A DNA stretch of 64,000 nt, taken from positions 1 to 64,000 of IMG/VR virus record IMGVR_UViG_3300037400_001273; one strand, given 5' to 3'. Each line of letters starts with the position of its first letter. Positions within the stretch are counted from its first letter, which is position 1. The stretch comes from a virus (Duplodnaviria > Caudoviricetes). A program made the translations under genes and the position numbers. Shown here one piece after another: positions 1 to 61,650 of this stretch. The notes under the pieces are model-generated. The model saw only the letters and a program-made list of their open reading frames with translations. It was not told where the DNA came from and did not search any database.

Positions 1-1283
1 AAAACAGCTGATAAATATCTTTGAGGATTTTTTCTAATTCTATTTATAACTTGTGTAAAAGTTAAACCTTGCACAGCGTTCCATGTTAAAGGAGAAAGTA
101 TTTCATCAAGACCTTTTCTATCTATTTTTATTTTATTTGAAAAAACAAAATTACGATTTGTAACAAAATAAGATGATTCTTTGATTTTAGCAATCATATC
201 AGAGAACTCGTTAAATTGTAAATATCCGAGTTGTGATGAAGAATCACCATAACGTAGTAAAGGAGTACTGTTTATAAGTTCTTGAATAGAATTATCTATT
301 TCAGAATTTAAATTGATTTCCTCAGTAGTTCTCCAAGTTTTTGTATTATTAGCACCTCTTTCAGCACGTTTATATTTATCTTGTCCACTAAATACCATAT
401 CTCCGAAACTATAAATTTCAAGAGCATCACCATATTTTAATTTCATTAAAGAGTCAAAGTGAGTTAATAATGTCCAAGCATTATAAGCTAAAACTCTTTC
501 ATGTAAATTTTTAGCGTGTTCGTCAGTACTTGTTGGATCGTAATTCATTCCTTCATCTATTTTATCATCAGTACCAAAACTAGCATGATTTAAAATAGCT
601 GATATTTCTTCGTCTAAGTCATTTACAATTCCTGTATAAATCCAATTACCTCTTCCGTCAGGTTTATACATTGTTGTATCTTTAAGCTTTTCAGGATCAA
701 TTTTTCTTAATCCTGTTTTCTCAGTTTTTAAAAAATTAACAACAATATCAAATAACTTTTGTTGATAATTTCGTATATTTAGATTCATATCTTCTACTGA
801 AGATACTGTTTTACCGTCTTCTCTATTAATTAATAAAGCATTTACCAATGCGATAGATGCTTCTTTTTCTACTTTTAGTCTAGTACTTACGGCTGTTCCA
901 TAAGCTTTAACTAAGAAATCTTTTTTAACGTCTTTTCCTAAAGCTATTCTTGCAGGGTCTTCTATTTTAGTTGTTGAATTATCCTCATTTGATGGTCTAT
1001 ATAAATCATCACTTTCCTCTAATATTCCTAAAATATCAGACTTTTTAGGAAATAAAGGATCGTCAAATAATTCATAATCCTCTGCAACTTCTATTATAGC
1101 TTTTGCTGTTTGGTCAAGTGGTAAAATTTTATTAAAATCTTTTATTAATTCTTCATAAGCATCTTTTAAAAGGACAGGAGAAAGGCCAGTGGCCTTTCTC
1201 ATTCCTTCTAAAAATGCATAAACTTCACCATCAACTTTCTTTAATAGTTCAGAATAATCATTGTATTGACAAACTGTTGTCAT
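1..1283 (-). CDS. N-terminal 427 codons of a large virion cargo protein, running off the window edge (absent from ORF track); could be the virion RNA polymerase or a neighbour
   Basis: ATG at 1283 overlaps the TGA of the upstream gene (ATGA); frame MTTVCQYNDYSELLKKVDG... stays open to position 1. No DxDxD RNAP motif in the visible part. Confidence 0.75.
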   Translation of the reverse strand, partial: MTTVCQYNDYSELLKKVDGEVYAFLEGMRKATGLSPVLLKDAYEELIKDFNKILPLDQTAKAIIEVAEDYELFDDPLFPKKSDILGILEESDDLYRPSNEDNSTTKIEDPARIALGKDVKKDFLVKAYGTAVSTRLKVEKEASIALVNALLINREDGKTVSSVEDMNLNIRNYQQKLFDIVVNFLKTEKTGLRKIDPEKLKDTTMYKPDGRGNWIYTGIVNDLDEEISAILNHASFGTDDKIDEGMNYDPTSTDEHAKNLHERVLAYNAWTLLTHFDSLMKLKYGDALEIYSFGDMVFSGQDKYKRAERGANNTKTWRTTEEINLNSEIDNSIQELINSTPLLRYGDSSSQLGYLQFNEFSDMIAKIKESSYFVTNRNFVFSNKIKIDRKGLDEILSPLTWNAVQGLTFTQVINRIRKNPQRYLSAV

Positions 1284-4200
1284 ATTAAATTAATTTTTAA
1301 TGTGTTTATAACATTACAAGCATCTTGTGGCTTATTATCATCTGTTGATTTATTTTCTAACATTTCCATTAATCTATTTACATTATCTTCAGAAATACCA
1401 TAACTTAAAAGAGCACCTCTAAAATCACTTGAACCTGAATACATATTTGTTAATTGTGTTTCAAATTCTTTACTATCAGTTAATTTAGAAAGTTTCTTTA
1501 ATATCATTTTGGTAAATTTATCAGATGTACTTTGTACAAGAGTTAATATTTCCTTATGTATATCATCAAATTCCTTTGATGTAAGTTCTTTATTTACAGA
1601 AGTATTAGGAGTTTGAGGAATAGTTTGTGGAATAAGTTCAATAATTGTCTTACCCTTTGAATCACTCATGTAATTTAATTGATAAGTTTCGTTACCAACT
1701 TTAACAAAAGCAAAACTGTTTCCTTCTCTATCTAATTGTAATTCTGTAATTTCAATTCCTTCTGAATCAGTTATTATCTTATCAGATTTCCATTTGTTAA
1801 ATATTTGAACTTGACCATTAATTATAAATGCTATATTATCAGTATTTTTATTAATCTGATTAACAACATATTTTTTATAATCGCCTTCAATATCACTTGG
1901 AAGTATATCTAATCCTGTTTTGTTTTTAACAGTTTTTAATAAGTTAGCTATATTTAAATCAAAATTAGGATTTACAGAATGTCTATGTATGTAATCTAAT
2001 GTATCATTATAAGCTTTGGTATGTTTATTACCTCTATATTTCTAATGACGTCTTTTAAGTATATTTCCAAGTAATTCAGTAATATTTGCTTGTAGTATAG
2101 GTTCTGTTAAAACTCCTGAAATTTGATAAGAACGTTTATTACCTTGAGCATCTGTTATTGTCCAATCATCATTTTGTGATAATTCATAGAATGTTTCCCA
2201 CTCAATTCCATTGGTTTTTCTATTTGCTTTAAAGAAAACAGATCTTCTATCATTAGATAAACGTTCCTCAACAAGTTTCATATTATCTGTATGTAAACTT
2301 CCAATTGCATTCTTTTCACCTCTAATACTAGATCTAATATTAGGATAATAGATTTGTGCTAAAATTGTTTTAAAAGCAACGTGATTTGGAACGTTACCAA
2401 ATCCTACAAGAGATGATGTTTCTTTTAATTTAGATATTAATTCTTCTCCTTCATATTGAGAAAGATCTTCAAGTGTTTTCTTAATACTTTCAACAATATT
2501 TCCAGTTGTAGCTGATTTAGTATCAATCTTTAATTGATTAATAAAATCATCTAAACCATCTTCTCTAAACAAATCTTTTATAATTTGATAAGCAGAATCA
2601 ATATTACCAACATCATCATGTAAATTTGCAGTTTTTGCATATCTTTCAGCAAGATTTTTAGCATAATCAGCAACTCCGATTTGTGGAGGAAGAACATATA
2701 CAATTTTAACGTTTCTTGGCTCTCCGTAATCATTTAAATCTCTTTTTAAGATACGAAGCATTTCAGATTCAGTAAACATACTTTCTGGATCATTTCCTAC
2801 TAATACGAATGGATGTCCAGGTTTGATTTTTATAGGTAATTCATTACCATTTTCATCAAACATTGTAGAAGATTTAGAGTACATTAATCTAGATATTTTA
2901 ATATCTGGATTTTTAGCTAATTCAAAAATATCAATAAATTCTGGATTTAGCTTTTGATTATGATTTGCAACATAATCAAATCCTCTCTTATTTCCAATAG
3001 GTTGAACTCCTAAATTAGTAAAAGTATTTGCAACAGTCCAATTATTATCATCTATTTTAATAAAAGAATCATCAGTTATGTTAAGATAAACATAAATTAA
3101 ATGACGAAGTCCTTTATTTTTTGTAGAAACACTTCTTAATTGTTCAACATCTGTAATTGTTTGCTTAACATCTGTTAAACCTTGATTTATTAAAGTAATT
3201 GGATTTGGAAGAGATATAAGAGGTAATTCTAATACGTCTTCTCCTTCAGATGCAATCTCTATTGAAATAGTTTTTCTTTGTACTTTTTTAGAATCAACAT
3301 CATTAGAATTTACAAATTCTAATTCTTCATCCTTATGTCTTTGTGCTCTTGTATATTCTCCTTTACTTGAACTTAATCCGTTTTGAGTTTGTTTTGCGTG
3401 ACTAACTAGACCAAATATAGTTGAAATATTAGAAATTCCAAACTCTTCATTTAAGATTTTTTCAATCTCTTTATTAAGTTCAGCTTTATCAGAAATTGTA
3501 AAAATAGCTGTTCTTAAACGTCCTATGATATTTAAATATTCATTTAAAGATCTAATTGATTTTCCAGCCTTTTTATCAAGTTTAACTAAGCCATTTACAC
3601 TATCTAAACGATGTTCATTATTAGGGAAGAATTGTATAGTATCATTTTCAACATAAACTCCAGATTCAAATGTATTGAATGTATATCCAAATGCGTTAAA
3701 TACTTCAGGTTTATCAGCTTGACAAAGTGTACTTATATCAGTTGGGTCTGGATTTATTAATGTTGTTTCCTCTACAACTTCTTCAATTGTTGGCTCTAAT
3801 TGTTCATCAATTGGATCAATGTCTTCTGGTTTTTCTTCCTTATAATATTTTTTAGCTTCATCAGATTGTGCAAAATCAAGTGCGTCTTGAACATTTCCGA
3901 ATGAATTAACAAAAGAATTTTCGTTTATTCTAGTCCAAATATCATCACCTTCAAATTTAACATATGTAATTCCCGCTTGTTGACATATGTCAGAAACAGA
4001 CATAGTGTATATATAATGTCCTTGATTAAGTCCTATTGTTTTATCTTGGTGAGTAACAATAATAAAATCTCCAGGATTAATAGTTATTTCTTGACCATTT
4101 ATATTCTTTACATTTGCAAAATTTAAAGGATCAATTCTATTTGATATAGAATATTCTTTTGAAACAGAATCATAATTAAAATCGAAATCGTTTTTATAGA

Positions 4201-7200
4201 AATACTCAGCTACTGTTCCAAAGAATAAATTCTTTGATTCATATGTTCCATTAGGATATGTTCCTAAGAAGTTTTGCATTGCTTCAATTTCAGCATGGAA
4301 AGCATCTTCTGACATATTCTTAAAGTCTGGATCTAATAAGAAGTTTTCTTTAAATCCATTAGGAACTCTGAATGTAACACTACCGTCTGCATTTTTAATT
4401 TCATCTAGCCACCAATAATTTTTTCTTGCTAATTCAATAGATTCTGCTTTAGTAAAAGTAAATTCTTTATTATTATATAAATCTTCCATTGCTTTTCTAA
4501 ATGCAGCTTCTTTAGCACCTTCTGCCATATTATCGAATGCAGAAGTAATACCTGTAGCAGTAGAAGATGGTGCAGGAGGTGTAGTACCTGTAGCTATTGG
4601 TCCAGAAGTTCCAGGTCCTGTAGGAGGTTCTGGTTTAGGTTCTGGTTCAGGTTCTGGAGTTGGTGCTGCCTTCTTTTTAGGAGCTGTATAATGAACAGGA
4701 TTTCCAGATTCTGTTAACCTTGTTAAAGACTCACGTCTTTGATCAGCGTATAATTTAATTGCGTTTTCACTGAAATTTTCTAAGTGAGTTTCAGGATCTT
4801 GTTGTTTTTGTATATAAGCATCAGTAAATACAATACTACCTTGACTTGAACGAGTAATAGCTGTATAAAGATCATTTGTTAAGTTAGGATTACTTTCATT
4901 TATTTCAATGATATAGTATTGTCCTTCCTTACCTTGTGATGTAGTTCCAGGTAAAAACTCAACATATTCAGAATAATTATTCTTAATTAAATCATATAAG
5001 TCTGAATTGTCTGGATCATAAACAAATCCAATTTTTTCACCCGGACTTAAAGTTGAAATCATTAATTTAATTGATTCTTCAACATCTGATACTGATGAAA
5101 CATTTTTATCAAAATATTTATCACCGTATATACCTGTTTCGTCTTCAAAATAATGTAGTGTTAAATCATTTTCTATACCGCTAGCCCAAAGCTGTGCAGT
5201 TGAAAGATTTAATGTTTTTTGAGAATTAGTTGTTCTCATTGAAACACCTAATTTAGGTGTTCTTATAAAGTTTACATTGAAAAGATTTACAGGTAATTTA
5301 GCACCTCTATTTCCAAAAATAGTTCCATCTTTTTTAACAGTAAAGTTTCCACAAACTCCAGATTGGTCTGTATCTCCAGCACCTAAAATCATTAAACCAT
5401 TTTGTTCAGCATATCTATTTAAATCATCAAGATCAAACATACTAATGTTTGTCATCTCATCAATAATAATAAGTGAATATGGTTTACTTACAGCTTCAAG
5501 TTTACGACAAGAACGGTATTCACCTTGTCTTGTCATTTCATAATCAGCTTCAGGAATATCGTAAAGTCTATCATCGTTTGTACTGTCAATTGCCTCTTTT
5601 AAAGGTTCTCTGTTTACGATTTGTCTCATTCCTTCCTCTAATCCGACTGCTCTTGTTTTAGTAGGATCAAGACCTAAGTTTGTTATTGATTTTTTAGCAT
5701 TTTCAGCAGCTGCTTTTTGGTCTTCTTCACTTGCTGAACCTGCTGCATATATAAATAATACATTATCAAGGATACCAGCTTTACTTAGTTCCTCGTTATT
5801 TTGTATCATTTTAATAGTTGTTTTATAAACACCTGTAGATTTACCAGAGCCAGGAATACCTTCTGTAAATACAATACTTGAGTATTTAGGAACAATAAGA
5901 TTAATAAAAGGATAATCCTTAACTTCCTCTATTGCTGCTCCATAATCAGACCATTTCTTGGTTTCTGAGAAATTTATATTTTGTCTATCAATAACTTCAC
6001 GTCTTTTATCTTCATCAAAAGTTGACCATTGTTCTTTTATAGCTTGACGGAAACCATAATAGAATTGCTTGAATAAATCTTTATTAGCAACAGATGCAAA
6101 GTTTTCATAAATAGCTAATTCTTGACTTGGAATAGGTGCTATTGTTGGATCTATTGCATTGATATATTCTTTATGGAAATCAGTAGATTTAACTGCTGCA
6201 CGAGTAGCTAACCACCATATAAAAGAATTATCATCAATTACTTCTGTAGTTTCAGTTAATAACTCATTAGGAACTTTAAATACATCAAAGTTTTCTCTAA
6301 GTAATTTACCAAGTTTTTTAGATGATTTTAAAGACTTTTCATTCTTTTTAAAAAAGTCATAAACAGCATCTTCCATCTTTAAAACTTCTTCCTCAAGTTT
6401 ATCTTGATCTTCTTTAGAGATATTAAGATTTCTCTTTTCTCCATTAGCATTTAATACTTCTAATGATTCAAGAAGTGATTTTAATTCTTTAACTCCCTTC
6501 CAATCTTCATCATCTGGTGAAAGTGCTGCTACAAAACTATTAAGTCTATTAAAGAATAAATAGTCTTTATTTAAAGCAACCTTTCTTTGAACAGCTAATT
6601 TTTGACCAGAAGCTACACTATATAAGTTTTTATAGAATTGAAGTTTATTTTTAACAAGATTTAAATCTTGTATTAAAACATTAGCAGTATTTGCTGTTAT
6701 TTCAAATAAATCAACCCATTTTTGATTTCCAACCTTATGATTTATTTCATTAAGAACTTTATTATAACCATAAGCGTTATCTAAGTTTCCATCATCAATT
6801 TTTCCAGCTTCAATTGCAGAACGTAATAAATCAATTAAGTTTATTGCTTCTGTAATTTGTTCACCCATTGATTTATTCATTGAGAATTTACTAATATCAC
6901 CATTTGTTCCTTCAAATATTTGTGATAAATCTCTCATTAATTGAGAAATTTTATTATCAGAACCAATAGCTGTTGTAAATTTATCAAGAATTTCTTCAAT
7001 TGGTGAAGAATTTAATTCGTTGAATTTTTGTCTGATTTCTTCAAGTCTTCTAATGTTTTCATATCTTGAATTTAAAAATTCAACAGCTGTATCTAATTCT
7101 TTTTGTTCGTCTTCTGATAGATTTCTAGCTGAACTTAATCTAGATTTAACTTCATTATATCCAGATTGATTAATTTCTTTTGTTAAGATTCGTGAAGTTG

Positions 7201-10200
7201 TTTTAATAATATTTTCTATAGCTTTCTTTATCTCAAAGTTAGCAAAACCTTGTTTCATATAAGGTGCAACAAGGTCATCTATAGATTTAGTAATTTGTTC
7301 AGCAACTAATGACTTTTTCTTTTCGTAATTAGCATTTCCTTTCTCAGTATATTCTGTTTCAAGAGCTAATCTTTCTTCACCTAAATCTGCTTCTTTTTCA
7401 GCTTTTTCTTCAGGTGATAAAGAAGTATCAAGTTCAACTTGAGCAATTCTATCTCTTAAATTATTAAGTTTTGTCTGAAACTCATTAGATATATTATTTT
7501 CTTCATTAATTACTTGACTAAATGTATTTCTAAAAGCACTATCATTGAATTGAAGTCCTAAGTTTGTATACATAGAACCTAATCCACCTATGATTTGTTG
7601 TAGCCATTGTTCTGGATTCTTTAAACCTTGAATATCTTGGAATTTTTCATACCATTTATTTAAAATTTCTTGAAGATTAAGTAAATCTTGTGTTTTACTT
7701 AACATTTCATATTTAGCTACATTTTGTGCAATTATAGGACTTGCATTTAAAAGTACATTCTTAAAGATCTCAGCAGCATTATGTACTTGTTCTGCACGAT
7801 CCATTTCATTCCAATTTTCCCATTCTTTTTGAAGTAAACCTAACTCATTTTCAGAGATTTCGTTGAAATTCTTTTTAGTTTTATATTCAGCAAATCTTAT
7901 AAATGAAGGTTTAATAAAACTATCATTTATTAAAGTAGTCATTTCAAATAGAGCATCTTGTATAAATTCTGAAGCACGTGTTCCATCAAGTAATGCTTCT
8001 TTTTGTTGTCTAAGTTCTTTAAGTTCACGTTCAATATTTTGGATTTTACTTCCGCTATTTTGTTGAGATCCTAATTGTGCTCTTAATTGATTTAAACTTT
8101 CTTTTAAAGCAACTTGTTCTTCATCTGTTGCAGTTTGAAGTTTAGTTTGAATATCATTAATTTGTTGTTGTAATAATTGTTTTTGATTTTCAGCAATATC
8201 AATTTGAGCATTAGCTGGAGTATTATTTTCAGTTTCACTTGAAGTTACTTTTCCCTTCTCAGCTAATAACATTGCATTAGCTTGAATAAGTTTAGCACCT
8301 AAAGAATTAAATTCTTGTAAATAACGTCCAGCAGTAGCAGATCTTTGTAATAGTCCAAATTTAATATCAGGTAATAAATCAGTTTGTTTTGATAAGAATG
8401 AATCATCACTCATTTTAATTCCTTCTGCTGAAAGAACATCATCAAATAATTTAATTTGAGCATAAATAGCATCCTTAGCAGCCTTATCTTGGTTATCTTC
8501 AGATGTACCTTGATCCCAAACATAATTATCATCTTCTTTTGTAAAATGACGTGCTGAAAGATTCTTATCACCAAGAGTCATTTCATCAACAGTCTTTAAA
8601 AAATCTTGAGTTTGTCCATTTCTTACCATATAGATAAGTTCTTGAACAGCTTGGTCAAATTCCATATGGTCAAGCTTTTTCATATTTCTCATATTATCAA
8701 GACTGAATCCGGCTGCACCACCACCAATAAAGCCTCCAACAAAGTTCATTGAATAGCGATTAAGAATTTTCTCCCAATCACCATTATCAAATGCTTCAAG
8801 ACGTGTATCATCACCTCTTAACCATCCAATAGTATTGAAGCAAGCTTTACTGAAATCTGCTAAGAATTCTTCTGATACTTCTTCAGTACCCTCACCAAGA
8901 GCATTAGCAAAAGCAGCTTTTATTGTTTTATCACCTGTTGATTTATAACCTGTATATAAATCTTTAGCTGTATTCTTACCTATATTAAATATTTTTTTAG
9001 CTAAATTTTTTTTAGCAGCCTCTTCTGCACGTTTTACACTACCAGGAACTAATTCTAATGCTGCTTTCTCAGTTTCTTTTTTAACTTTTACTAAAGCATC
9101 AGCAATAGCCTTTTGATGTAGTTTTTCATAACGAAGTTCTGGGAATAACCATTCACCAATACCTGTATTTAATATTGCAGCTTCTCCAGCAGAATATCCT
9201 AATGTAAGAAGAGCGGCTTCTACAGGTGTAGCACCTTGTAATTTAGCTTCTCCATATGTATCACCAGTAGTGATAGCAGTCATATATGTTTTAGATAGAA
9301 GTTCTCCTATCTTATTGTAACCTTTAACGTAAGAATCAAGTTCTGAAGTAGCACGAGCTTGTCTTATTAAAGCAAGTTCTCTAGCGGCTCTTTGTAAATC
9401 AACTATATTTTTACCTGACTTTACTAATTCATCAATTTTAGATTGGTCAAGTTTAGCTAAATCAGCTTCAATTTGAGCTAATTTAGATTGATAATTACCG
9501 TTATTTACTATTCCGTACTTATTCTTAAAGATAAGTGGAGCTTTCTCAAATAAGAATCTTTGTTCTTTAAATTGAGCCATTACATCTCCAACTAATCCAA
9601 TTAAATTCTCCATAGTCCAAGTATGTTGTTGAGAATACTCTGAAACAGCACCTTGTCTACTTATTGACTTAGAAAATCCTTCTAATTCAGAGAATGTATT
9701 GTGAAGTGAACCAAATGCACCTGTACTTTCTGATACCATTTTACCAAGAGTTCCAAGTAATCCAGCAGTTTGTCCCGCTAAACCTAAGAAAGTTACAGCT
9801 GGTCCAACATAAGGAATAAACATAGAACCTACAAGTGCGGTATTTTTCATTACAGTTCCACCAACACTTTTATCTTTACCATCAGAGTCGAAGAAATCAT
9901 ATTTATTCCATTCTGAACCATCTGTGGTTAAAGTATTCATTTTATTAAGAACTCTTCTTCCATATACATCTCTACCATCAAGATTTTCATAATAGAAATT
10001 ACCAGAAGAATTAAGTTTTAAATCACCTTTTTTATGTGTTTCTTTCTCACCTGTAACAGGATTTAAATGTTCACCATCTTCATCCCATTGTGCAGCTACA
10101 CGAGTTTCCCAGAAATTACTAAACCAAGAATCATTTGGTGCATCTTGCCATTTAGCTTTAGATTCATCAATAGTTCCATCAGGTCTTGTTGCTTCTACAG

Positions 10201-10657
10201 GATTAGCAAGAACTTTTTCTCTTTGTGCAAGTTCATCCCAAGTATAAGGAGATTCTTCAGTCTTTCCTAAGCGAACAATACTTTGTGTATTTCTATATGG
10301 ATTAGATTGTTTAATCCAATTTATTTCTGGACCTTTTTGTCTTTGGTCTACTGGGGCAAATATGTTATCTCTATGATAAACACGGCTTTTCTTTGCTAAA
10401 TCATCTGTATATTGATCAGAACTCATCACATTATACACATTTTTAGCAGTTTGATAGAAATCATGAAATTTAGTTTTACTAAAGTTTCCCATGTCATCTT
10501 TAAACATTGCCATGTTTTGTATTTTTTGAGAATTTAAATATTTCTCTTCGCTTTCTAAAGCAGTATTATCAGCTGTTAATCCAACTGTCTTTAGATTACC
10601 TAAAGACAGTCCTGGATTTCCAGCCATATTTAGTATTAAATCATAACTTTTTTCCAT
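1280..10657 (-). CDS. Giant virion cargo/ejection protein (3125 aa) with central SF1 (RecD/Dda-like) helicase domain
   Basis: ORFs 2042..10657 and 1280..1669 are in one frame joined through a single TAG at 2042. Motifs GIPGSGKST, IIIDE, GAGDTDQ, TTSQGKE, LYTAITRS; N-terminal hydrophobic hairpin, coiled coils, Pro-rich linker. Confidence 0.85.
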
Positions 10658-17024: not shown

Positions 17025-17032
17025 ATTAAATG

Positions 17033-39307: not shown

Positions 39308-39321
39308 AATTTTAAAAAGTT

Positions 39322-40425: not shown

Positions 40426-40438
40426 AATTTTTTAATTT

Positions 40439-49676: not shown

Positions 49677-49682
49677 ATTTTA

Positions 49683-51743
49683 TCAAGGGTTAAAAGTTAT
49701 ATTTCTTGTTCCTGCTTGTTGTGTACCTGTTAAATATACATAAGCAGTCATTCCATTAATTGTAGTTGATTCTCCATTAACTGTATAAGGATCGTCTGCT
49801 AAACCTCCTACTTGTTTAACTCTTATTCTACTTTGTCCACAAATAAATGCTAATCTTTGATTAGCAGTATAAGTAAATGCTTTATTAGTAATTGTTTTAA
49901 TATTACTAACAGGAGAATCTGGAGAATAAAGATTATCTACTTTCGCAATTTCTGTAATTACTTTAGCTGCTGTATCAATATTAGAATCAACAAGTGCTAT
50001 ATAAATAGGACAAACTTTATTAATAGTAGCAGTTTTACTAATTGATTTAGTATATGGTGCTGCTATTGATGCAGTTAATGTATAAGTTTGAGGTGCAGTT
50101 ACACTATTTTGAATACTAACAGAAGTTTGACCTGACTTTTCTATAGTTTGTCCATTACCTACTAATTTAATAGAAGTAATTTTATCAGCTGTAACTTCTG
50201 GAGGAAGAGAAACTGTACCAGTTGCAGTAACTGTTTTAGGATAACCAGCGTATAAGTTTCCTAATGTAAAACCAATACTACCTGTAATTTGATCAATAAT
50301 TTCTTGTAAGAATCTTGATTCTATTGCAGAAACTCTTGCTTCTAAAGCTGCATTTCCAGCTTCAGAAAGAATTTCTTGTACTGATTTAACTCCTATTCCT
50401 GTTATATTTGTTCCGTCGTAACCACCTGTTCCTTTAATATATAAGTCACCATCTGTGTTTACTTCAAGTGCATTTAATTGACTAGTTTCTCCAATTCCAA
50501 CTGAAAATACAGTTACATCTTCAGTAGATTTATTTCTAGTACCACAAGCAAATTCTCCTTCATTCTTAGTGTTTGTAAATACACCAGAAGCATGAGAATA
50601 ATCTCCTACTGCATTTGTACCTAAACCTTCAGAATGTGAGCCTTGTCCATCAGCTATTCCAGATTCAATATAAATAGTATCTGTAGTTATTAAATCATAT
50701 TCAATTGGAGAATCTAAATATAATTTAACATTATTTTCTACAATTTCTATATCTGTAATAGTTTTTACACTGAAAGAAGCATCAATTGCATTTGAAGATA
50801 AAACTGTTCCTTCATCAATACTATCATATATAGAAGAATCGATATCAATTTCAGTACTATCTGTTGTATAATCAAGTATAACTTCTACAGGAGTAAATGA
50901 TCCATTATCATTTATATAAACATATTCTCCCGCATTTATATTTTCAGCAAAAGGAGCATCAATATCTACAGCAACAAATAGTTGTCCATTTAGATTTCCA
51001 TAACTTTTTGAAACTACATTAACACTTTCAACTTTTTTAGGATAACGTAATTTAGAACCTACTACAATATTTTCATTATTAGCTATAATAATGAAATTAT
51101 CTCCAGCTGTATACGCTTCTTCAAGATTAGAAGATGTATTTAAGCCTTTACCTTCAGAATGAGAATTTTCACCTAAAGCATTAGTATTTAATCCTTCAGA
51201 AAAAGAATTAGCTCCAGATGCTTTATTATTTATATTTGTTTTTAAACCTCCGTTTTCTTCTTTAAATAATCTACTATTTTGTAAATCAGTTATTGAAGAA
51301 TTTATTCCTTCATGATAAGAATCTATTTCAGTTTTTGTATAAAATAAATCCTAATCAATTATATCCTTTATAGGAATTATTATATCTTGTTTGTTTGCAT
51401 CAGTATTAAAACTAATTATCAAACATTTTGTAAGTGTATTATCTATTTCTACGTTATCTACTCGAACACTATTTATAATTCCATCTTTAATAAAAAGAGT
51501 AGCGTCTAGATAACATACTATTGTAGAATCAGAACTTCTAAAATTAATTCTTTTTGTATCAGAATCATAATCAACAGTACTGATTCCAGCGGCAATGTTT
51601 CCTGTGTCAACTAATTTTTGATATAGGTCTTGGTTTATTGCTTCTTGTGTTTTACCCTATATTCTATCGTCAATATCATAAGTATTGACGATACCTTTTC
51701 CAGCCATGCCGCTTGTTAATTGTTGCGTAAGAGTATATGCCAT
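49683..51743 (-). CDS. Tail fibre-like protein, 686 aa (absent from ORF track)
   Basis: TAGs 51657 and 51351; SHSEG/SHASG repeats and YIKGTGGYDGTN module; TGA at 49683. Confidence 0.8.
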
Positions 51744-51744
51744 A

Positions 51745-53040
51745 TTATTTTAAATATAAAGTATCAGCTTGTGCTTTCCAAAGTTCAGTACTACGATAAC
51801 AATTATAACCTTCTAATGTTCCTTTACTAATAAATCCAGCAGGAATAACATCTGCTGCATCGTGGAATATAGAGGTAGGACTAATAGATTTTGTTTGAAT
51901 AATCCAAACGTAAGATGTTGTACTAGGAGTTCTTAAATTATAAGTTTGTCCAGAAACTAATCCATTTGCTTCTACAACTGAACCACCTTCAAGCATTGTA
52001 ATATCTTCAGCTGTAATGTTTTCTTTTGTACTCCATCCAAAGTAAGTTTTCTTAGCATTTAATGTAATACTTGGACTCTTAATAATAGCTGATTCATATC
52101 CAGGGTTTTCAGTTTTAACTTGATATTTTTCAGCATCAGCAGATGTATTAATTGAAATTTCCATTGGACTATTAAATGAAGTCCATGTAGCACCACCATT
52201 AGAAGAATAATAATTAGCTACACCAAACATTTCTGATGGAATTAAATTAATTGTAGCTTGTGTTGAATAGTTATTGTTATTATTATTTCTCTGAACAGTT
52301 ATACCTCCTTCTTTACACTTAGGATAAATTTTAACTTCATATGTATTTTCTGTAGACCACATTCCATTATAAATAGCTTTAACTTTAATTACATATGTTT
52401 TTACAACATTATAAGCATCAAGATTAAATCCACTTTGTAAAGAGAATGAACCACCTGTAATTTGATATTCTCCTCCATCTATAGAATAATATAGAGTAGA
52501 ACCAGCTTTATTATTTGTCACAGTAATACCAACAGATCCTGTAATAATTTTTTGATTTAGATAAACAGCAGAAATAGTAGGAGCAGCTGGAGCAGTTAAT
52601 TTTTCCCAAGCACTACTTACATAAACATCGTTATTTGCAAAAGTAACTTTCATTTTATTTAACTCATTACTCCATTCCATTGTGAAATTATTATTTCCTA
52701 ATGCTTCTAAATCTTCTCTAGTTACATAATTAGCTAAATCTGATTCAGTTAAGAACTCTGATAAATCAAGATCTGCTGTTCTAAGATAATCTCGTAAATC
52801 TTCTATTGTGGCAAAATTTTCTAATAAAATTCCTAAATTTTCTCTTGCAAGACGTTTTTTACGTTCAGTGTTTAGTTCTGCAAGTAATTCAGAAACTTTA
52901 AAATAATTTGAGTCATCTATAACAGTTGAACCTCCTTGGTTTCCGTTATTCTAACTTCCATTTCCACTAAAATCTATTGACTGACCAGGATTTCCATAGA
53001 TTCCTGATCCACAACATTGTTTAACAAAAGTATCATTCAT
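51745..53040 (-). CDS. Fibre/structural protein with beta-sandwich domains, 431 aa
   Basis: Extended through TAG 52951; LAELNTE..KRLARENLGI motif. Confidence 0.65.
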
Positions 53041-53197
53041 AACTTAATAATTTTTCATAAATTAAGAAAGGATTTTTTAATTCGCTTGCAGTTTCTATAA
53101 ATGTTATTTTAGTCAAGATCTTTTGATAATCATCTTGATACCCAACATTTAATCTTTTAAGCAACTTCTAAAAATCAGAAATGACCGAATTTTTCAT
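53033..53197 (-). CDS. Small hypothetical protein, 54 aa
   Basis: MKNSVISDF*KLLKRLNVGYQ (TAG 53168); fills the gap, overlapping both neighbours. Confidence 0.55.
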
Positions 53198-53981
53198 TAC
53201 TTGTATCGCATCCACAACTAACTCCTCCTTTTCCTTTTAATTCTTCTTTACAAAAATTGTTACAACGTGTAAATTGTTCTATAATTCTTTGTGCTTCTAA
53301 GAAACTTCCTAATTCAAGTAAATAAGTTACAACATTAATTACCATCCAAAGTAAATCTCGTTTATAAATTAAATCTTTAAATGCATCAAGATTACAATCT
53401 AACGGACAATACTTGTTTAATAGCTTAGTAGCTATTTTAGTATAACAACGCTTAGTATTACATATTGTAAAAGTTTCATTACAAAGTAAAGAAATTGTAG
53501 ATTCTTCACTTAGTATTTCTTCTGATTCACGATTGAATACATCTGAAAAAGGAACTTGTACTAAACCATCTTCTGTATATTTATATACTTTTAAATTATC
53601 ATATACATAAATATATTCATATGGAATATTATTTATTCCAAATTCTTCAGATACAAGATCGAACCATTCTCTTGTAGGAAGTATAACGTGAACTAATCTA
53701 TATAGTCCATCTTCATCTAATTTAAATTGTGTTTTATCTGGTACATTATAAATCTCTCCATTTTCTGTTTCTTGTAAATGTTGAGATATTTGCATGCTTT
53801 TTAAAGTTTCTTCGTTATCAGAATTAACTTTATACAATACATTAATAGTTACAGTATCAGTATATCTAAAAGATCCAATTCCAATAGATAATTCTTGAGA
53901 ATAACTATTATTATCAAGTTCTTTTCCTGTAACTGTTATTTCACATAAGTGATTTTTACAAATGTCTATTGATGTATTCAT
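53175..53981 (-). CDS. Conserved virion protein with Cys-rich C-terminus
   Basis: ORF track; CNNFC...SCGC. Confidence 0.65.
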   Translation of the reverse strand: MNTSIDICKNHLCEITVTGKELDNNSYSQELSIGIGSFRYTDTVTINVLYKVNSDNEETLKSMQISQHLQETENGEIYNVPDKTQFKLDEDGLYRLVHVILPTREWFDLVSEEFGINNIPYEYIYVYDNLKVYKYTEDGLVQVPFSDVFNRESEEILSEESTISLLCNETFTICNTKRCYTKIATKLLNKYCPLDCNLDAFKDLIYKRDLLWMVINVVTYLLELGSFLEAQRIIEQFTRCNNFCKEELKGKGGVSCGCDTSNEKFGHF

Positions 53982-54091: not shown

Positions 54092-57000
54092 TTAATCTAC
54101 TCTTCTAAAATAATCATTAGCTAATGCTGCTAAAATGCCTCTATTAAGTACCTCTTCAAATTTAGTAATTTCAGATTCAGTAAAAAGTATTTTACAACTA
54201 TTTATACTACAAGCCTCTAAACTGTTATAACCATCTTGAGAGACTCTATTATCTAATGATACTTCATAAAATACATTATTTACAAAATATTCACCTAATT
54301 CTATTTGTCTATCGTTTTGATATCTGTATGATTCAGAATAAGGATTCTAAGAATTTATATATGCATTATATTTTTTTAAAATTTCGTTATAACCACGAAA
54401 ACCTACGAATCTTTTTGTATTATTCTTTTCTACAATAAAACAATATCTTTTTTCAGGAAAATCGATTAATACTCCATTATCCATTCTTCTATAGACTCTA
54501 CATCTTCTATATGTTCCTATATTTGTAATTCCACATTTAGTTTTATTATCTATTGTGAAATAAGGCTTATTAGCACTAATTTTATATAATAAATTTCCAG
54601 TAAAATTACCTAATTCAACTACAGGTGTATTATATGAACCATAATTAACAGTAGGCAAACTATATGTAAATGGTTTTGTACTTTCTACTGGTTCATCAGT
54701 AATTACATCAGATAAATCAGGATTACATCCTTTATCTTTAAACGCAATAGTTTTTGTTTTATTACCTTTTAAAGGAACAGTAACAGATTGTGGTGAATTA
54801 TTATAATTAAACTATGTAAAATATTTATTCGAACTAATTCCCGAATAAATTATAGTACCAATAATTTTTAATTCAATTTCAGATTCACATATAAATTTAT
54901 GACTATAAATATTTACAGAATTATCTATAAATTGATAAAAAGTTATTTTATTTGAAAGTTCAAATACATAATCATTAGATGGATTTCCTGTATAAAGAAC
55001 TTCTTCTCTTATAGGATGATCTGTATCTATTTTCCAATATGTTCCGTTATTTCCTGTTAATTTTGTTAAATTTATAACGTACATATCCGTTCCACATCTT
55101 GCTAATAATAAAGGAACTCCATCATCGAAGCCTTGATTATTAAGTATAGCGTGTTCTGGTTTCTAAGAATTATAAATAACTAATTCAATTGAACTATCAG
55201 AATTTTTAGGAGTTACTTTGAAACTTTCTGCATTAACAGCACCTGTAAACGCAGATGTTCTTGCATTAAATTCTATTCTTGAATTTTCACCATCAAGTTT
55301 AATTCCAGCACTATTTAATTCTCCTGTAAGTTTATCTATAGCGTTATTTACACTAAATTCAATACTTTTATTAGTTTGAGAAATGGTACTATATGATTCA
55401 GAAATTGATTCTCGAGAACTAAACTTTAAAGGTGTAGTTCCAGAATTTAACATAGGAGCAGCAAATTCACAAAATACTTTTGAACAACCGTTATGATTTG
55501 TATAAAAGTTATAAACTCTAGAATAAGGTTCAAAACAAAATGCTCTATCTAAATTATCATTACGTTTTGTTAAACTTGTATCCGTATTTTTGTTAACATA
55601 TTCACTACCTGCTTCAAATGTAAACCAAATTTTAAACCATCTGTATCTTATATACTATTCTATATTTATACCAGAATTATCAACATCTCCAAGACTTATA
55701 GTAAATGCTTTATTTAAATAATTTAATAAATTACCCTATCCGAATTTAATCCATAATCCAAATTGATTATTATCAACTGATCCATCCTTAAATCCGTTTC
55801 CTGTTAAATCTCCTTGATTATTAAACTTATATGCTTTTTTGTGTTGAGTATTATAAAGAGTTTCTGAACTCCAATTTTTAACTTCTTCTCCATCAACAAT
55901 AGTATATTCTGTATTTTCTATATCTTCAAGAGAATTTTTTGTAGAAAGAAGAGTAATATAAAAATTAGGAGTTAATTTTGCTAATTCAGATACAAATCCT
56001 ACATTTAACATAAGATTTTGGAAAGAACATCTAAGCTTATCTGAACTAGTAGGAACATCGATAAGTGATGTATATCCTGAATTAAAAACTGCAGGTAATT
56101 TAATATAAAATGATGCTGTATACTTATTACCAGATGTTACTTTTAAATTTGTATATAATCCATAAATGTGTCTTCTATCTTCAACATCTAAATTATTAAT
56201 ATCTGAAGGAGGATTATTATCATATATTATAAATGATTTAATACTCTTTTCTAATACGTTTGAAGAATTCATTTGATAATAATTGTTATTATCATAATAT
56301 TTATTATATACATTAGTAGCTGGATTAAGTATCTTTGTAATATTAGAATAATTAGGATATTCTTTATATCTCTTATGCCAATAACTATAATCGTTTTTAA
56401 ATAAAGGATCATGGAATTTATTAGTTACTGCACCACCTGCACCAACTGTAGAAGCAATAAAATCTTTAGTTTGTTCTATTGTAGAATATCCAGCTAATTT
56501 TCCATCAACTTCAGATGCTACTGTAGAACTAATCATTCCAGGAACAATATTTTGTACAGCAGTATTTATTGTATTACCTAATCCATCTGCTGTAGTTTGA
56601 AGTTCACTTACTTGTGATTTAATACCATCAGCAGTTTGTTTAATATTACTTACTGCTACACTATTTGGAATACCAAATTTTACAGTAAATGGTTTAGTTT
56701 TAAAATCAGCCAAAGCTGGAGTATAATCGTTTTCAGCTTTTTTAATTACAATTGCTAAGAAACCTATTTTATTATTTCCAAAATGTAAAGGTTCTAATTT
56801 TGAACCTTCAATAGATTCAGAATAAACACAATTAGCAGCAACTTTAAAATTACTATTTGTTGTGTTAGTATTTATAAAATAAAGTTCTGATATTATATAA
56901 TCTGAACTATGTAAAAATAAAGTATAATCAGTATTAGCATTTGGAACTTTTAATTTACAGAAAACAGTACCGTTCCAATTTGAAGAACTTGCAGGAGATA

Positions 57001-59458
57001 AATCAAATACAGGTCCTTTTTGGAAAGCTTCATATCCATTTAAAGTAGCAGCATTATAAGTATTAGCTCGTCCAGAACTTATACCATCATATTCTGAAGA
57101 AGATGTATCATTTCCTGTATTTTCTATATCAATATATTCAACTCTACTTACATCAGTTTCTAATTTTTCAACGGTTTGATCGAAAACAGATTTTAAAACA
57201 AATGGGTTATTTGTATTACCACCTGTTGCAATTGTATGCATTTCACTTTCAAGTCTATCAGCTGTACTATTTAATGTAGATTGTGTAACAAAACCATTTC
57301 CTACTAATCCTGTTACTGTATTAGTTCCATCTTGAGAAGCAACTCTTTTATAAATATGTCTAATTAAATCATCCTCATTACTACCTGTTTGTCCTGTGAT
57401 AGCTTCACTTATTTGGTCAGCAGTGATTTTAAAATTAGCCATTTTAGAAGTTACTGATTCAAATAATTGAATTGAATATTTATCTAGATATTGATTATTA
57501 TTATCTTTCTTAATCTTTATAAAAAAAGTAAGTACTGAACTTGCAGCATCACTTGAAATATCGAGTCTAATAGATTCTGGATTAGTTACTTTAATCCATC
57601 CTTGACTTGCATTATCAAGAGTACCTAAACTATTAATTTGAATTGCATTTCCAAATTTATAATAAATTGTATCAATGCAAACACACTTCATAAAATAAGT
57701 ATGTCCTTTTTCAAGATTTGCAGTAACTCTTGCTTTTTCACTAAAAGTTCCAGAATTATCAATACTAAATGTAGTAGTGATTTTATGATTTGCATCTAAA
57801 CTATTATCATCTGCAAATTCTTCTACAAGCTCTAATGAATAATCAGCAACACTTTGATTAATTGAATCTTTTGTAGATTCAATAATAGATTGTAGTGTTC
57901 TATAATTATTTCCGTCTTTTAAATATTCTAATACTGTTGCATTAATACGATCAGCAGTCATTCCAAGTTCTGTACCTTTAAATTCATCACTATTTAAATA
58001 GTTTGCAACAGTAGCAGTTATTGTTTCTGGTGTTAATGTTAAATTAGATAATTGACCACCATTTTTTAAACTTCTAATAGCAGATGCTACAATTCCTTCA
58101 GCAGTTTGTGATAATTGTGATTGTGTTAAATATTTTTGAACACATACTTTTACATCAACAGCTTCTGTTAATTGAGCAGCACCATTATATTGAATATAAA
58201 GGTATCTATCGTTTTCATCAGGAATAGCTTCATTATTCCCATCTAATTGTACAACAGTTGGAGAGTTTACTCCATCAAGAGTTAATTCTTGCCAATCTGC
58301 ATCAGAATAATTTGGAATAGATGAACTTGTTTTTATTTTAAACTGATAATTTAAAGGAATTACTTCATCACCATCAGCTTTATCCCAAGACATATAATAA
58401 TATGTTTCTTTATCGAGTGCTCCTTGTACTCTACGAACTTCTCCAGGATTAGTATTAACAGGGAATCTAACAGTTTCAATAACTTCTAAATTAACATCTC
58501 TAACTGTTTGAGATATTAAACTATCAGTCATTCTCTTTACTGCTGATTTAAGAGTAGAATTATTAGGATCACTAAAATCAGATGTTTTAACATATTGTGA
58601 CATTTCACCTTTAACAACATCCCATTCTTCACCTATTTCTCTAACTCTATCTTCAGCATCATTCATATTTTGTAATGTCTTCTGGTACATTCCATTAGCA
58701 CAATCAACAAAATCTTGGAATTTTGTTACTTGCTAAGTTTCACCATTAATATTAGTCATTTCAAAATTCTTCTTTCCTATTGCTATATCAACGTAATCTA
58801 ATACTTTGTTAGCAATAGTATTTTCATCATTAACATATGTTCCTTGAATACCCCACATTGTTTTAAGTCCATTTACAGTATTACTGATTTCATGTAAACT
58901 TTCTGGAGTAATTTCACCATTTGTTAATGCTTCTAAATCATTTTGAGCAGAAGTTAAAAGAGCATGGGCATTTGATAAATCTCTGTTAGCTTCATTTAAT
59001 GCTTGACGTACTTCACCATTATCTCCAAAATATTGTGCGTACATTGTTTGCATTGAAGCTACTGTAGCTTGTCCTTCGGTAATTGCTTGATTGATTTGTT
59101 CTTGTGCTTCTCTTAATGCAATTTGTGCAGCAGTATTACCTGTGGCTACATCACCAACAAGAGCGTTAGCAGTATTAATAGCATTATTAACAGCCTCTCT
59201 TGCGTCAGCTAAAGCGTTTTCTACAGCGTTTAATGCTGCTTGGTGAATTACATCTGCATCTATAGAAGCACCATCAATTTCTGCATTTGCTACAGCTGTT
59301 TTAACATCATCATTCCATAGCCCAGATAATTGAGCTAATGGAATGTTGATATTTTTATAACTACCATCTGATAGTTTTTGTACAGCAGAGACATAAGTAA
59401 GATCCTTATTTATGTCTTTTGCATTTATTGATTCAAAACTTGATAATTTTCTGTTCAT
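54092..59458 (-). CDS. Large fibre-like protein, 1788 aa
   Basis: Five track ORFs in one frame joined through TAGs 58733, 55736, 55655, 55163, 54812, 54347; coiled coil and repeated SQxKQTAxxI segments alternating with beta domains. Confidence 0.8.
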
Positions 59459-61650
59459 GACATTCTAATTTTATCGTTATAAGGATTATCATCATATAAT
59501 TGAGCTTTTTCAATAAGAACTTTATCTTGATCTACTTGAGCCTCAATTGTTTTATAATCTCTGTCTGTTTGTGCTTTATACATATTAACTTGTTTGTCGT
59601 ATTCTATTTTACGAGCATCTAATTGCATACGAGCTTCATTAAGATTTTCAACTTTAGATTTAAGTTGAGCGTTTTCGTTTTGAAGTTGTTGTAATTGTTG
59701 TTGTGCTTCTTGTAACTGTTGTTGAAGTTGTTGAATTACATTATTCTCTTCCTTCTGTTTCTTTAAAGCTCTTCTGATTTTTATTTTAACATCAGTAGGA
59801 CTTTTACAAGTTACAATTTCAAATAGAATATCGGCAGGAAGTTGTCCACCTTTAATAAAATCAGGAAGTACTGCTTTTATTTGTTCAAGGTCTTGAACAA
59901 GATCTGAAGTAGTAACTACACTAATGTCATAATCAGTTACTGTGAAATGTTCAGGTAAAGCAGTAAATATCTTTTGTCGTTTATCACCTAAAATAATAGT
60001 TCCTGTTATTCCTTTCTTGTAAACAACTTTTGCTACATTTAAAGAATCAATAAGTAGTTCAGCAGTAATAGTATCCATTTGATGGAACCATTGTTTAGTA
60101 ACAATAAATGAGTTTTGAACTCCTTGTTTAATATTACTAACTGCATCACGTTGTTCGATTCCTTGTAGTCTTTCTCTGAATACTCCTGTTATAGAAGAAC
60201 AATTATCTTCTACATCTTGAATAGCTAATTGAATACCTTGAATAGCTTGTACTTTAATAGTATCATCAAATCCGTTAAAAGTTTGATTAAGTGGAGCTTG
60301 TCCAGAAGCTATTCTTCCTTCTTGAGCTGTATCAATTAGTCCTACTCCGGCTTTTTTGTAACTGATCCATTTAAGCAATCTTTCTGCTGGTTCTGGTCCT
60401 AAGTATGTTGGAATAAGGGAAGTATCGATCCAATCACCAACAGTTCCACTATTTGCAATAAGATTATCTCTGAAAAAGTGTAATATATCATACTTGTCTT
60501 GAAGATGTGCACAAGCGAGAACTAATGAATATGGTTCATCGCTTCTATTTAAGAAATATAAACCATTAATTGATAATGTACAATATGCAGGATCGTCTTT
60601 AGAACGAACTACATTTTCATTCTTACCTCTTAATATGAAGAAGCTATCTTCAGATTGATTATCTCCAATACGGATAGTTTCGTATCTTTGCATAATAAAG
60701 TCTTTGTCTGTTTCAATCCATTCAACTTCATATACAGGAATTAATCTATAATTAGCATTACTTTTAGCATCAAGTCCAAAAGTACTTTCAAATCTTGCTT
60801 GAATACCTTCTGACATTGGAGAAGGGATTCCTTCAAGACCTCTCATATAGAAACTTCCACCTTGGTCTAATTCCTCAAATTCTTCTTTAAGACGAGCAAC
60901 GTCTTCATCAGATAATTCTTTTCCATAACGAGCTAAGATTTCTGGACGTGTCATCCATTTTCTTACAACTGCTCTATATGAATCTTTTACATAAGGAGAT
61001 TCAGGGTTTCTATCAATAAAAGTATTACGAGGATCTAATACTTCTATTTCAACATTTGTTTTTCCAGAAGATGGTTTTGCTTTATAAAAAGTATATCCTG
61101 TTATAAATAGGTCAAGAAGAATTGTTTTTAACTTAGTTAATAAGTCAGTTCTTCTACTCTAAAGAATATACTGAACTATATTTTGAGCAGCAACTTCATA
61201 TTCAGATATGAAGTCTTCCTCTATATCTTCCATTAATTGATCTAATTGTCTTTTGATTGAAGCATCATCCATTGCCTAACCAGTAATGAACTTTAAAATA
61301 TTATTTTGTAAATGATGACTCAAAAATTCTTTAAATTGAGCATCTATTTTAAGTTGCTTCTCTCTTTGAATATTTGTTATTGTTTCTTTATCTTTACACG
61401 TAATTTTTGGTAATATAGGAGTTCCTAAAAATTCTCCAACCATCGCATCAACGTGTTTTCTTACCAACGGAGTAAATTCAACAGAAGTAGGTGTACCTAT
61501 TCCGAAATTGTCTTCGAGATACTTATATTGTTCAGCATCTCGTTTTCCGTTGTATATATTATACGCTTTCTGAAGTTCAATTTTATCGAATACTAAGTCA
61601 GAAATCGTTCTATTTGTTAATTTAATTAATCTTTCGTCTTCGTTAGTCAT
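59455..61650 (-). CDS. Portal protein, 731 aa
   Basis: Joined through TAGs 61276 and 61159; YNGKRD..YKYL..GIGTP...PLVRKHVDAMVGE; C-terminal coiled coil; follows terminase. Confidence 0.85.

What the first reader, a model, noticed from the sequence alone, without database searches (positions are those of the whole stretch)
1280..61650. TAG is reassigned to a sense codon, most likely Gln, across the virion module
Seen: 43 in-frame TAGs by manual count; every gene ends in TAA or TGA; read-through lands on stop/start overlaps (10657 TAATG, 12564 ATGA, 30163 ATGA). Two internal controls give the amino acid: duplicated domain DQQAEIE vs K*QAEIE (18779), and KF*QGG (17001) vs KFQQGG (17073..17426 ORF). 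Established: code-15 recoding is reported in some Crassvirales. No suppressor tRNA is in this window.
Basis: partly seen in the sequence, partly recalled or inferred. Interest (0 to 1): 0.7.

Follow-up and report, generated by a model that had tools for sequence, protein, structure and literature searches.

The report
Phage reads TAG as glutamine
This fragment of a large crAss-like gut phage uses the stop codon TAG as a rare glutamine codon in its virion genes and carries its own TAG-reading glutamine-type tRNA, which is a well-documented habit of this phage group rather than a new one.

Summary
There are 43 in-frame TAGs in minus-strand genes between 1280 and 61674. Reading TAG as sense raises coding density in the window from 79% to 95%.

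The segments opened by read-through (3,525 codons) contain no TAA or TGA in frame, against 188 and 541 in the other two frames. Their codon usage matches that of the TAG-free genes.

MT835470.1 is a syntenic relative that uses the standard code. It has uninterrupted genes across these TAGs and shows Gln at 14 of 23 aligned TAG positions (background 4%, P = 2e-14). Gln beats Glu, the next best residue, by 8.7 log10 likelihood units.

It is a tRNA with anticodon CUA (Rfam, 48 bits). It is 88-90% identical to the CUA tRNAs annotated tRNA-Gln in Suoliviridae crAss phages, and its D-arm is typical of tRNA-Gln.

The contig is about 42% of a genome. Its relatives are 151-178 kb, and 13 of 14 IMG/VR relatives are more heavily TAG-recoded. 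This matches the published Zeta group of crAss-like phages (Yutin 2021). TAG-to-Gln has been shown by proteomics in other crAss-like phages (Peters 2022).

This scan has noted TAG recoding on many other genomes before. This is an ordinary new member of a known kind.

The parts
1280..10657 (-). 3125-aa virion or cargo-like giant protein. One TAG at 2042-2044 (codon 2872). Starts in the TAATG overlap at 10657.
   Evidence: Weak AAA_30 helicase-like Pfam hit. 65% of it aligns to MT835470.1.
10657..12567 (-). Gene of about 636 aa with TAGs at 12550, 12523 and 10681. ATG at 12567 overlaps the TGA of the upstream gene (ATGA).
   Evidence: The TAGs at 12550 and 12523 align to Q and V in MT835470.1. 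10681 is 7 codons before the TAA and has no homologue evidence.
12564..17048 (-). 1494-aa protein with TAGs at 17001 (KF[TAG]QGG) and 12633.
   Evidence: They align to Q and A in MT835470.1.
18134..18577 (-). 147-aa ORF with a TAG at 18467.
   Evidence: Frame continuity only.
18581..21349 (-). 922-aa protein with six TAGs (21254, 21107, 20738, 19334, 19325, 18779). Contains the duplicated domain used as the internal control.
   Evidence: The TAG at 18779 aligns to Q both in the paralogous repeat and in MT835470.1.
21351..26600 (-). 1749-aa virion structural protein with TAGs at 26586, 24552, 21720 and 21528.
   Evidence: phrog_15100, virion structural protein. One HSP covers 94% of it in MT835470.1, with Q at 24552 and at 21720.
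26600..30166 (-). 1188-aa protein with a TAG at codon 3 (30158). Its ATG overlaps the upstream TGA (ATGA at 30163-30166).
30163..30741 (-). 192-aa protein whose only Gln-type codons are three TAGs (30637, 30436, 30415). It has no CAA or CAG.
   Evidence: They align to Q, E and S in MT835470.1.
31181..32555 (-). Two genes (31181-31876 and 31869-32555), each with one TAG (31643 and 32016).
   Evidence: They align to N and Q in MT835470.1.
33768..35090 (-). 440-aa protein with a TAG at codon 5 (35076).
   Evidence: Aligns to Q in MT835470.1.
38481..40744 (-). Three ORFs (38481-39116, 39322-40425, 40439-40744) with one TAG each (38568, 39361, 40619).
   Evidence: The first two align to E and G in MT835470.1, and the alignment runs on past the TAG.
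41154..41573 (-). 139-aa ORF with a TAG at 41535.
   Evidence: Frame continuity only.
45633..53215 (-). Fibre-like variable genes: 45633-49676 (TAGs 48912, 48318, 48096), 49683-51743 (51657, 51351), 51745-53040 (52951), and the doubtful 60-aa ORF 53033-53215 (1 TAG).
   Evidence: Supported by frame continuity and codon usage only. No alignment to the relatives.
54092..59458 (-). 1788-aa fibre-like protein with six TAGs (58733, 55736, 55655, 55163, 54812, 54347).
   Evidence: 25 full-length homologues of 1762-1879 aa span all six positions.
59455..61674 (-). Portal protein with TAGs at 61276 and 61159.
   Evidence: phrog_6547, portal, 1.3e-43. The TAG at 61159 falls in a column that is Q or TAG in all 15 relatives.

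Best explanation
The window is the late (virion) module of an incomplete genome of a large, intron-rich, distantly crAss-like gut phage. In this phage TAG is a rare glutamine codon: 75 TAG against 889 CAA and 88 CAG on the 76-kb contig, about 7% of Gln codons.

TAG is decoded by a phage-encoded amber suppressor tRNA with anticodon CUA and a tRNA-Gln-type body. The gene lies at 73042-73114 on the minus strand, 9 kb beyond the window end. It sits behind two small ORFs and in front of a strong intrinsic terminator.

Shown here:
- TAG is in frame in real, conserved genes.
- Standard-code homologues are uninterrupted across these sites.
- Gln is the residue that aligns to them.
- The CUA tRNA exists and resembles tRNA-Gln and the known crAss suppressor tRNAs.

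Inferred:
- The tRNA is charged with Gln by a host enzyme, as for the E. coli supE class of tRNA-Gln(CUA) suppressors (established knowledge).
- It out-competes host RF1.
- More than half of the late genes, including portal, the TerL exon and the giant and fibre-like proteins, cannot be completed until the tRNA is made. This gives the late-gene timing or lock effect proposed by Borges et al.
For: - Coding density rises from 78.8% to 95.1%. There are 43 in-frame TAGs.
- The rescued segments are coding in frame 0 only and have no TAA/TGA.
- 20 of 50 table-11 ORFs would end in TAG, against 4 of 87 in the standard-code relative.
- MT835470.1 is syntenic and uses the standard code. It has Q at 14 of 23 aligned TAG sites, with binomial P = 2e-14 and Q ahead of E by 8.7 log10 units.
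- Among the 15 relatives, Q 51 plus TAG 16 make up 109 aligned cells. The relatives' own TAGs align mostly to our Q, in 173 cells against 54 for E, the next residue.
- The internal paralogue controls hold.
- The tRNA(CUA) is found by ARAGORN and by Rfam RF00005 at 48.3 bits.
- It is 88-90% identical to the CUA tRNAs annotated tRNA-Gln in cr53_1 and cr60_1, about 80% to that of cr130_1, and 81% over 54 nt to a true tRNA-Gln(UUG).
- Of 45 tRNAs carrying its D-arm in 185,579 genomes, 36 are Gln (CUG or UUG), 4 are stop suppressors and none is Glu.
- 13 of 14 IMG/VR relatives are TAG-recoded.
- Literature: PMC7886860, 10.1101/2021.08.26.457843 and PMC9523058.
Against: - There is no protein-level evidence for this phage.
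- Nineteen of the 43 TAGs rest only on frame continuity and codon usage.
- The tRNA has A73 and a U1-U72 mismatch rather than the G73 and U1-A72 of E. coli tRNA-Gln, and it encodes no CCA. Its charging is therefore inferred from resemblance only.
- No release factor or aminoacyl-tRNA synthetase is on the contig. The contig is only about 42% of a genome, so neither a standard-code early block nor other code-change genes could be examined.
- The Qs in database homologues of the 1788-aa protein may themselves be TAGs translated under code 15.
Confidence: 0.9

Rival explanations
1. TAG is a sense codon but stands for another amino acid, with glutamate most likely, then lysine, leucine or tyrosine. 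Earlier notes of this scan claimed such meanings for other recoded phages.
For: The acceptor stem begins UCCCC, which recalls tRNA-Glu (from memory, not tested). E, K and D appear at some aligned TAG sites. Earlier notes of this scan report TAG read as Glu, Leu or Tyr in other phages.
Against: Q is 8.7 log10 likelihood units ahead of E and more than 10 ahead of K. Strictly conserved Gln columns carry our TAG: portal 61159 and the TerL exon site at 64875. The D-arm is shared with 36 Gln tRNAs and no Glu tRNA. The tRNA is closest to tRNAs annotated Gln. The paralogue controls give Q.
Confidence: 0.05
2. Mixed use: most TAGs are read as Gln, but TAG still terminates some genes. Candidates are the TAGs a few codons before a TAA/TGA (10681, 39361, 12633, 38568) and the ORF just upstream of the tRNA (73380-73757). 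That ORF ends TAG-CGT-TAG exactly at the ATG of the next ORF. On this view the suppressor unit itself is written in standard code and TAG changes meaning during infection.
For: Short extensions of 7 to 28 codons after four TAGs. Tandem TAGs at 73379-73371, next to the start of ORF 73136-73384. A promoter-like site, two ORFs, the tRNA and a terminator form one unit. Borges et al. describe code-change modules written in standard code.
Against: The relative's alignment runs through 12633, 39361 and 38568. The extensions end in the stop/start overlaps typical of this genome. No homologue of the 73380-73757 ORF was found to test its end. Once the suppressor is expressed, every TAG is subject to read-through.
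Confidence: 0.2
3. The TAGs are true stops, and the window is a decayed or fragmented set of genes, or an assembly artefact.
For: Under table 11 the ORFs are simply shorter.
Against: All 43 breaks keep the frame. There is no TAA/TGA in 3,525 rescued codons, against 188 and 541 off frame, and codon usage is coding in frame 0 only. Standard-code homologues are continuous across the TAGs. A cognate tRNA is present. The whole clade shows the same pattern.
Confidence: 0.01

Closest known systems
TAG-to-Gln ('genetic code 15') recoding in crAss-like phages, especially the Zeta group of Yutin et al. 2021 (PMC7886860). Zeta genomes are 145-192 kb and dense in introns and inteins, and their branches use TAG, TGA or the standard code.
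   Same: In-frame TAGs in late genes. A suppressor tRNA(CUA). Relatives of 151-178 kb. Standard-code and recoded relatives side by side. TerL and MCP interrupted by endonuclease-bearing inserts. Low GC, 29%.
   Different: Light recoding: TAG is 7% of Gln codons here against 13-46% in the relatives. I did not place the contig in Yutin's trees, so the Zeta label is an inference from genome size, introns and distant crAss portal and TerL hits.
Suppressor tRNA(CUA) genes annotated tRNA-Gln in Suoliviridae crAss phages cr53_1 (NC_055889), cr60_1 (NC_055891) and cr130_1 (NC_055901).
   Same: The tRNA is 88-90% identical to those of cr53_1 and cr60_1 and about 80% to that of cr130_1. All have the CUA anticodon, the same D-arm and a U1-U72 mismatch.
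   Different: The phages are only distantly related, with portals 22-29% identical. Our copy has no encoded CCA and a different acceptor-stem sequence.
Late-gene lock model for stop-codon recoding (Borges et al., 10.1101/2021.08.26.457843), with proteomic proof of TAG=Q in two crAss-like phages (Peters et al. 2022, PMC9523058).
   Same: Structural genes carry the recoded stop, and the phage supplies the suppressor tRNA.
   Different: No RF2 or synthetase was seen on this fragment. No early, standard-code block is available for comparison. No proteomics exists for this phage.
E. coli supE-type amber suppressors, tRNA-Gln with CUG changed to CUA (established knowledge, from memory).
   Same: A Gln-type tRNA body with anticodon CUA inserting Gln at UAG.
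   Different: This one is phage-encoded. Its discriminator is A73 and its first pair is U1-U72, not G73 and U1-A72. Charging was not tested.

Membership tests
Stop-codon-recoded phage, TAG to Gln (code 15) | In-frame TAGs inside conserved phage genes, with coding density restored when TAG is read as sense. | tested here: met
   43 TAGs. Coding density 78.8% to 95.1%. Portal, TerL exon and structural proteins are affected.
Stop-codon-recoded phage, TAG to Gln (code 15) | Standard-code homologues are continuous across the TAGs and show Gln there. | tested here: met
   MT835470.1 has Q at 14 of 23 sites, P = 2e-14, and Q beats E by 8.7 log10 units. L009 agrees.
Stop-codon-recoded phage, TAG to Gln (code 15) | A phage-encoded suppressor tRNA with anticodon CUA. 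| tested here: met
   At 73042-73114 (minus strand), outside the window. ARAGORN and Rfam at 48.3 bits. Gln-type body.
Stop-codon-recoded phage, TAG to Gln (code 15) | TAG is not used as a terminator in the recoded block. | tested here: inconclusive
   All gene ends are compatible with TAA/TGA. However, 10681 and the ORF upstream of the tRNA (73380-73757) could end at TAG.
Stop-codon-recoded phage, TAG to Gln (code 15) | Recoding is confined to late genes, with early genes in standard code. | tested here: inconclusive
   The contig is about 42% complete and holds essentially only late genes.
Stop-codon-recoded phage, TAG to Gln (code 15) | Gln found at TAG positions in peptides. | not testable with these tools
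   Proteomics is needed. It has been done for other crAss-like phages (PMC9523058).
crAss-like phages (Crassvirales sensu lato, Zeta-like) | Portal, TerL and MCP homologous to those of crAss-like phages. | tested here: met
   The portal hits about 20 Crassvirales portals at 22-29% identity, E down to 4e-15. PHROG portal, TerL and major head hits.
crAss-like phages (Crassvirales sensu lato, Zeta-like) | Placement inside the Zeta clade in TerL, portal or MCP trees. | not tested
   Yutin's Zeta genomes were not available as named references. Only circumstantial agreement: relatives of 151-178 kb, introns, mixed codes.

The most novel reading that the evidence does not exclude
This lineage may be an early stage of recoding, and its suppressor tRNA may be a horizontally mobile code-change unit.

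TAG is only 7% of Gln codons here. The portal groups with a standard-code relative (L009, support 93/94). Yet the suppressor tRNA is 88-90% identical to that of Suoliviridae crAss phages whose portals are only 22-29% identical to ours.

The tRNA sits in its own promoter-to-terminator unit. The first ORF of that unit ends in tandem TAGs, so TAG might still act as a stop before the tRNA accumulates.
Probability: 0.3. Interest if true: 0.4.

Novelty: new member of a known kind. Interest (0 to 1): 0.2.

Why it matters
The practical value is annotation. Under table 11 about 40% of the ORFs in this contig are truncated, including the portal, a TerL exon and the large virion proteins, so the contig must be translated with code 15.

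Biologically it adds one lightly recoded lineage to a clade already known to switch between standard, TAG and TGA codes. It also shows that near-identical Gln-type amber suppressor tRNAs occur in distantly related crAss-like families. It does not open a new question.

Tried and rejected
- TGA or TAA as the reassigned codon. TGA gives no gain in coding (80.0% against 78.8%). TAA gives many spurious ORFs without closing the gaps as well as TAG does.
- Release factor (PF00472) and GlnRS/GluRS (PF00749) searched in six frames on the whole contig: none found. Pfam and PHROG scans of the ORFs found none either.
- Homologues of the ORF upstream of the tRNA, to test whether it ends at its TAG: none in IMG/VR.
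The Qs in the database homologues may therefore be circular. I use them only to show that the homologues are continuous.
- Suppressor tRNAs in five near-complete recoded relatives: a CUA tRNA was seen in only one of them among the loci fetched. This agrees with Yutin's remark that recoding and detectable suppressors do not match perfectly.
- Rfam at gathering threshold found only the tRNA and no group I intron model in the inserts that split MCP and TerL.
Full report
**What the window is**

The window is the first 64,000 bases of a single 76,033-base virus contig with 29.4% GC. CheckV rates the contig about 42% complete. Nearly all genes lie on the minus strand.

PHROG profiles identify a portal (59455-61674, E = 1.3e-43), the C-terminal part of a large terminase (61890-63179), a major head protein fragment (36022-36900) and a virion structural protein (21351-26600).

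By tblastn the portal is 52-57% identical to three unannotated 'Bacteriophage sp.' records from human faeces. It is only 22-29% identical to portals of classified Crassvirales and Cellulophaga phage phi14:2. IMG/VR holds 14 further relatives with portals 52-58% identical. Five of them are near-complete genomes of 151-178 kb.

The window is therefore the late module of a fragment of a large, distantly crAss-like gut phage.

**Check of the observation**

With TAG as sense, the non-overlapping minus-strand ORFs between 1280 and 61674 contain 43 in-frame TAGs. One of them lies in a doubtful 60-aa ORF.

ORFs of 100 aa or more cover 78.8% of the window under table 11 and 95.1% with TAG as sense. Making TGA sense changes nothing.

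The segments that become open only by read-through amount to 3,525 codons. They contain no TAA or TGA in frame, against 188 and 541 in the other two frames. Their codon usage matches that of the TAG-free genes in frame 0 only: +0.43 against -0.44 and -0.41 bits per codon.

Under table 11, 20 of 50 ORFs would end in TAG. In a standard-code relative only 4 of 87 do.

The quoted junctions (TAATG at 10657, ATGA at 12564, ATGA at 30163) and both internal controls are present as described.

**Which amino acid**

MT835470.1 (117 kb, 36% GC) is 93% coding under table 11. It gains nothing from any reassignment and has no tRNA.

Its genes are uninterrupted across our TAGs. For example, one HSP covers 94% of the 1749-aa protein. 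Of 23 TAG positions aligned to a residue, 14 are Q, against a background Q frequency of 4.1% (P = 2e-14).

I estimated the substitution table from the same alignments. With it, Gln is 8.7 log10 likelihood units better than Glu and more than 10 better than any other residue.

Adding the IMG/VR relatives, the cells opposite our TAGs are Q 51, TAG 16, K 8, E 5 and D 5. Two of our TAGs fall in columns where almost every relative has Q or TAG: portal 61159 and TerL exon 64875. In the other direction, the relatives' own TAGs align mostly to our Q, in 173 cells against 54 for E, the next residue.

Earlier notes of this scan claim TAG read as Glu, Leu or Tyr in other phages, so I looked specifically at Glu. 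It is not supported here.

For the 1788-aa fibre-like gene, 25 database homologues of 1762-1879 aa span all six TAGs. I therefore use them only as evidence that the gene is continuous.

**The mechanism**

The rest of the contig has exactly one tRNA, at 73042-73114 on the minus strand, with anticodon CUA. Rfam scores it 48.3 bits against a gathering threshold of 29.

Evidence that its body is of the Gln type:
- It is 88-90% identical to the CUA tRNAs annotated tRNA-Gln in the Suoliviridae crAss phages cr53_1 and cr60_1.
- It is about 80% identical to that of cr130_1.
- It is 81% identical over 54 nt to a genuine tRNA-Gln(UUG) of an Acinetobacter phage.
- All of these share a U1-U72 mismatch and A73.
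- I scanned 185,579 prokaryote genomes for its D-arm with a free anticodon. Of the 45 tRNAs returned, 36 are Gln (CUG or UUG), 4 are stop suppressors and none is Glu.

The gene lies behind a promoter-like site and two small ORFs and in front of a 14-bp-stem terminator.

Charging with Gln by a host enzyme and competition with RF1 are inferred, by analogy with supE-type suppressors. No release factor or synthetase is on this fragment.

**Extent and pattern**

Recoding is not limited to the stated range. The last 12 kb holds 32 more TAGs. Twenty of them are in one 3'-open gene at 74451-76031, with 15 in its first 97 codons.

On the whole contig TAG is 7% of Gln codons (75 TAG, 889 CAA, 88 CAG). 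In homologous genes of the recoded relatives it is 13-46%. Thirteen of 14 IMG/VR relatives are heavily recoded, with table-11 coding of 15-55% rising to 88-95%.

The portal tree pairs our phage with the standard-code L009 (93/94 support, midpoint root). MCP exons and the C-terminal TerL exon carry no TAG.

**Comparison with what is known**

Yutin et al. 2021 (PMC7886860) describe this situation for crAss-like phages, and for the Zeta group in particular. Zeta genomes are 145-192 kb with many introns and inteins. Different branches use TAG=Gln, TGA=Trp or the standard code. Suppressor tRNAs are present, and recoding is mostly in late genes.

Borges et al. (10.1101/2021.08.26.457843) propose that recoding locks late and lysis genes until the suppressor is made. 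Peters et al. 2022 (PMC9523058) showed Gln at TAG by mass spectrometry in two crAss-like phages.

This contig meets the tested defining features of a code-15 phage. Its assignment to the Zeta group is circumstantial. I rate it a new member of a known kind, of low interest beyond correct annotation.

The least ordinary points are the light recoding next to a standard-code sister lineage, the sharing of almost the same suppressor tRNA with a distant crAss family, and a possible TAG terminator in the ORF upstream of the tRNA. All three are unproven.

Noticed in passing
Beyond the window: contig 73042-73114 (L001:9042-9114), minus strand, with its unit at contig 73800-72974.: The suppressor tRNA(CUA) sits in a compact unit. 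In order: a promoter-like site (TTGAAA-16-TATATT), an ORF at 73380-73757, an ORF at 73136-73384, a hairpin, the tRNA, and a 14-bp-stem terminator. The first ORF has no CAA or CAG and ends TAG-CGT-TAG right at the ATG of the second ORF. TAG may therefore act as its stop before the tRNA is made.
   Followed up: partly
Beyond the window: contig 74451-76031 (L001:10451-12031), plus strand.: A 3'-open ORF of 527 codons with 20 TAGs, 15 of them in the first 97 codons. These fall in a Q-rich stretch (AQQKAQQNQAAQQAQA) where every Q is a TAG. It has no Pfam hit.
   Followed up: partly
Window 61890-63179 and 63180-64000, continuing to contig 65411.: The large terminase is one 758-aa ORF in MT835470.1. 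Here it is split into 64350-65411 and 61890-63179 by a 1.17-kb insert holding a weakly LAGLIDADG-like ORF (63417-64304). This is probably an intron with a homing endonuclease. Rfam gave no group I hit at gathering threshold.
   Followed up: partly
Window 36022-39321.: The major capsid gene is one 473-aa ORF in MT835470.1. Here its parts (37827-38378 and 36022-36900) are separated by a 0.93-kb insert with ORF 36942-37655. A further ORF, 38481-39116, matches a gene located elsewhere in the relative. The MCP exons carry no TAG.
   Followed up: partly
Whole contig.: TAGs are enriched in the first 40 codons of genes. Excluding the 74451 gene, 14 of 55 TAGs lie there against 74 of 955 CAA/CAG codons (Fisher P = 1e-4). 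Part of this may come from ORFs being extended upstream through TAG. Four of the seven TAGs within the first 20 codons align to the N-termini of the relative's proteins.
   Followed up: partly
Window 12550, 17001 and 17073-17426, with further copies at 14408 and 19350.: A recurrent K-[FYL]-[Q/TAG/K]-x-G-G motif occurs near the N-termini of several large virion proteins. Examples are KL[TAG]QGG, KF[TAG]QGG, KFQQGG, KYQAGG and KFKQGG. It may be a shared processing or packaging tag.
   Followed up: no
Window 30163-30741.: A 192-aa conserved protein that writes all three of its Gln positions as TAG and has no CAA or CAG. It is the most completely suppressor-dependent gene in the window. Its function is unknown.
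   Followed up: no
L061 (CALEBD010000341.1, a 4.6-kb contig binned with a Clostridium MAG) and L049.: Contigs binned with Firmicutes and Acholeplasmataceae MAGs carry CUA tRNAs nearly identical to the crAss cr53_1 suppressor. These are probably phage contigs mis-binned into MAGs.
   Followed up: no
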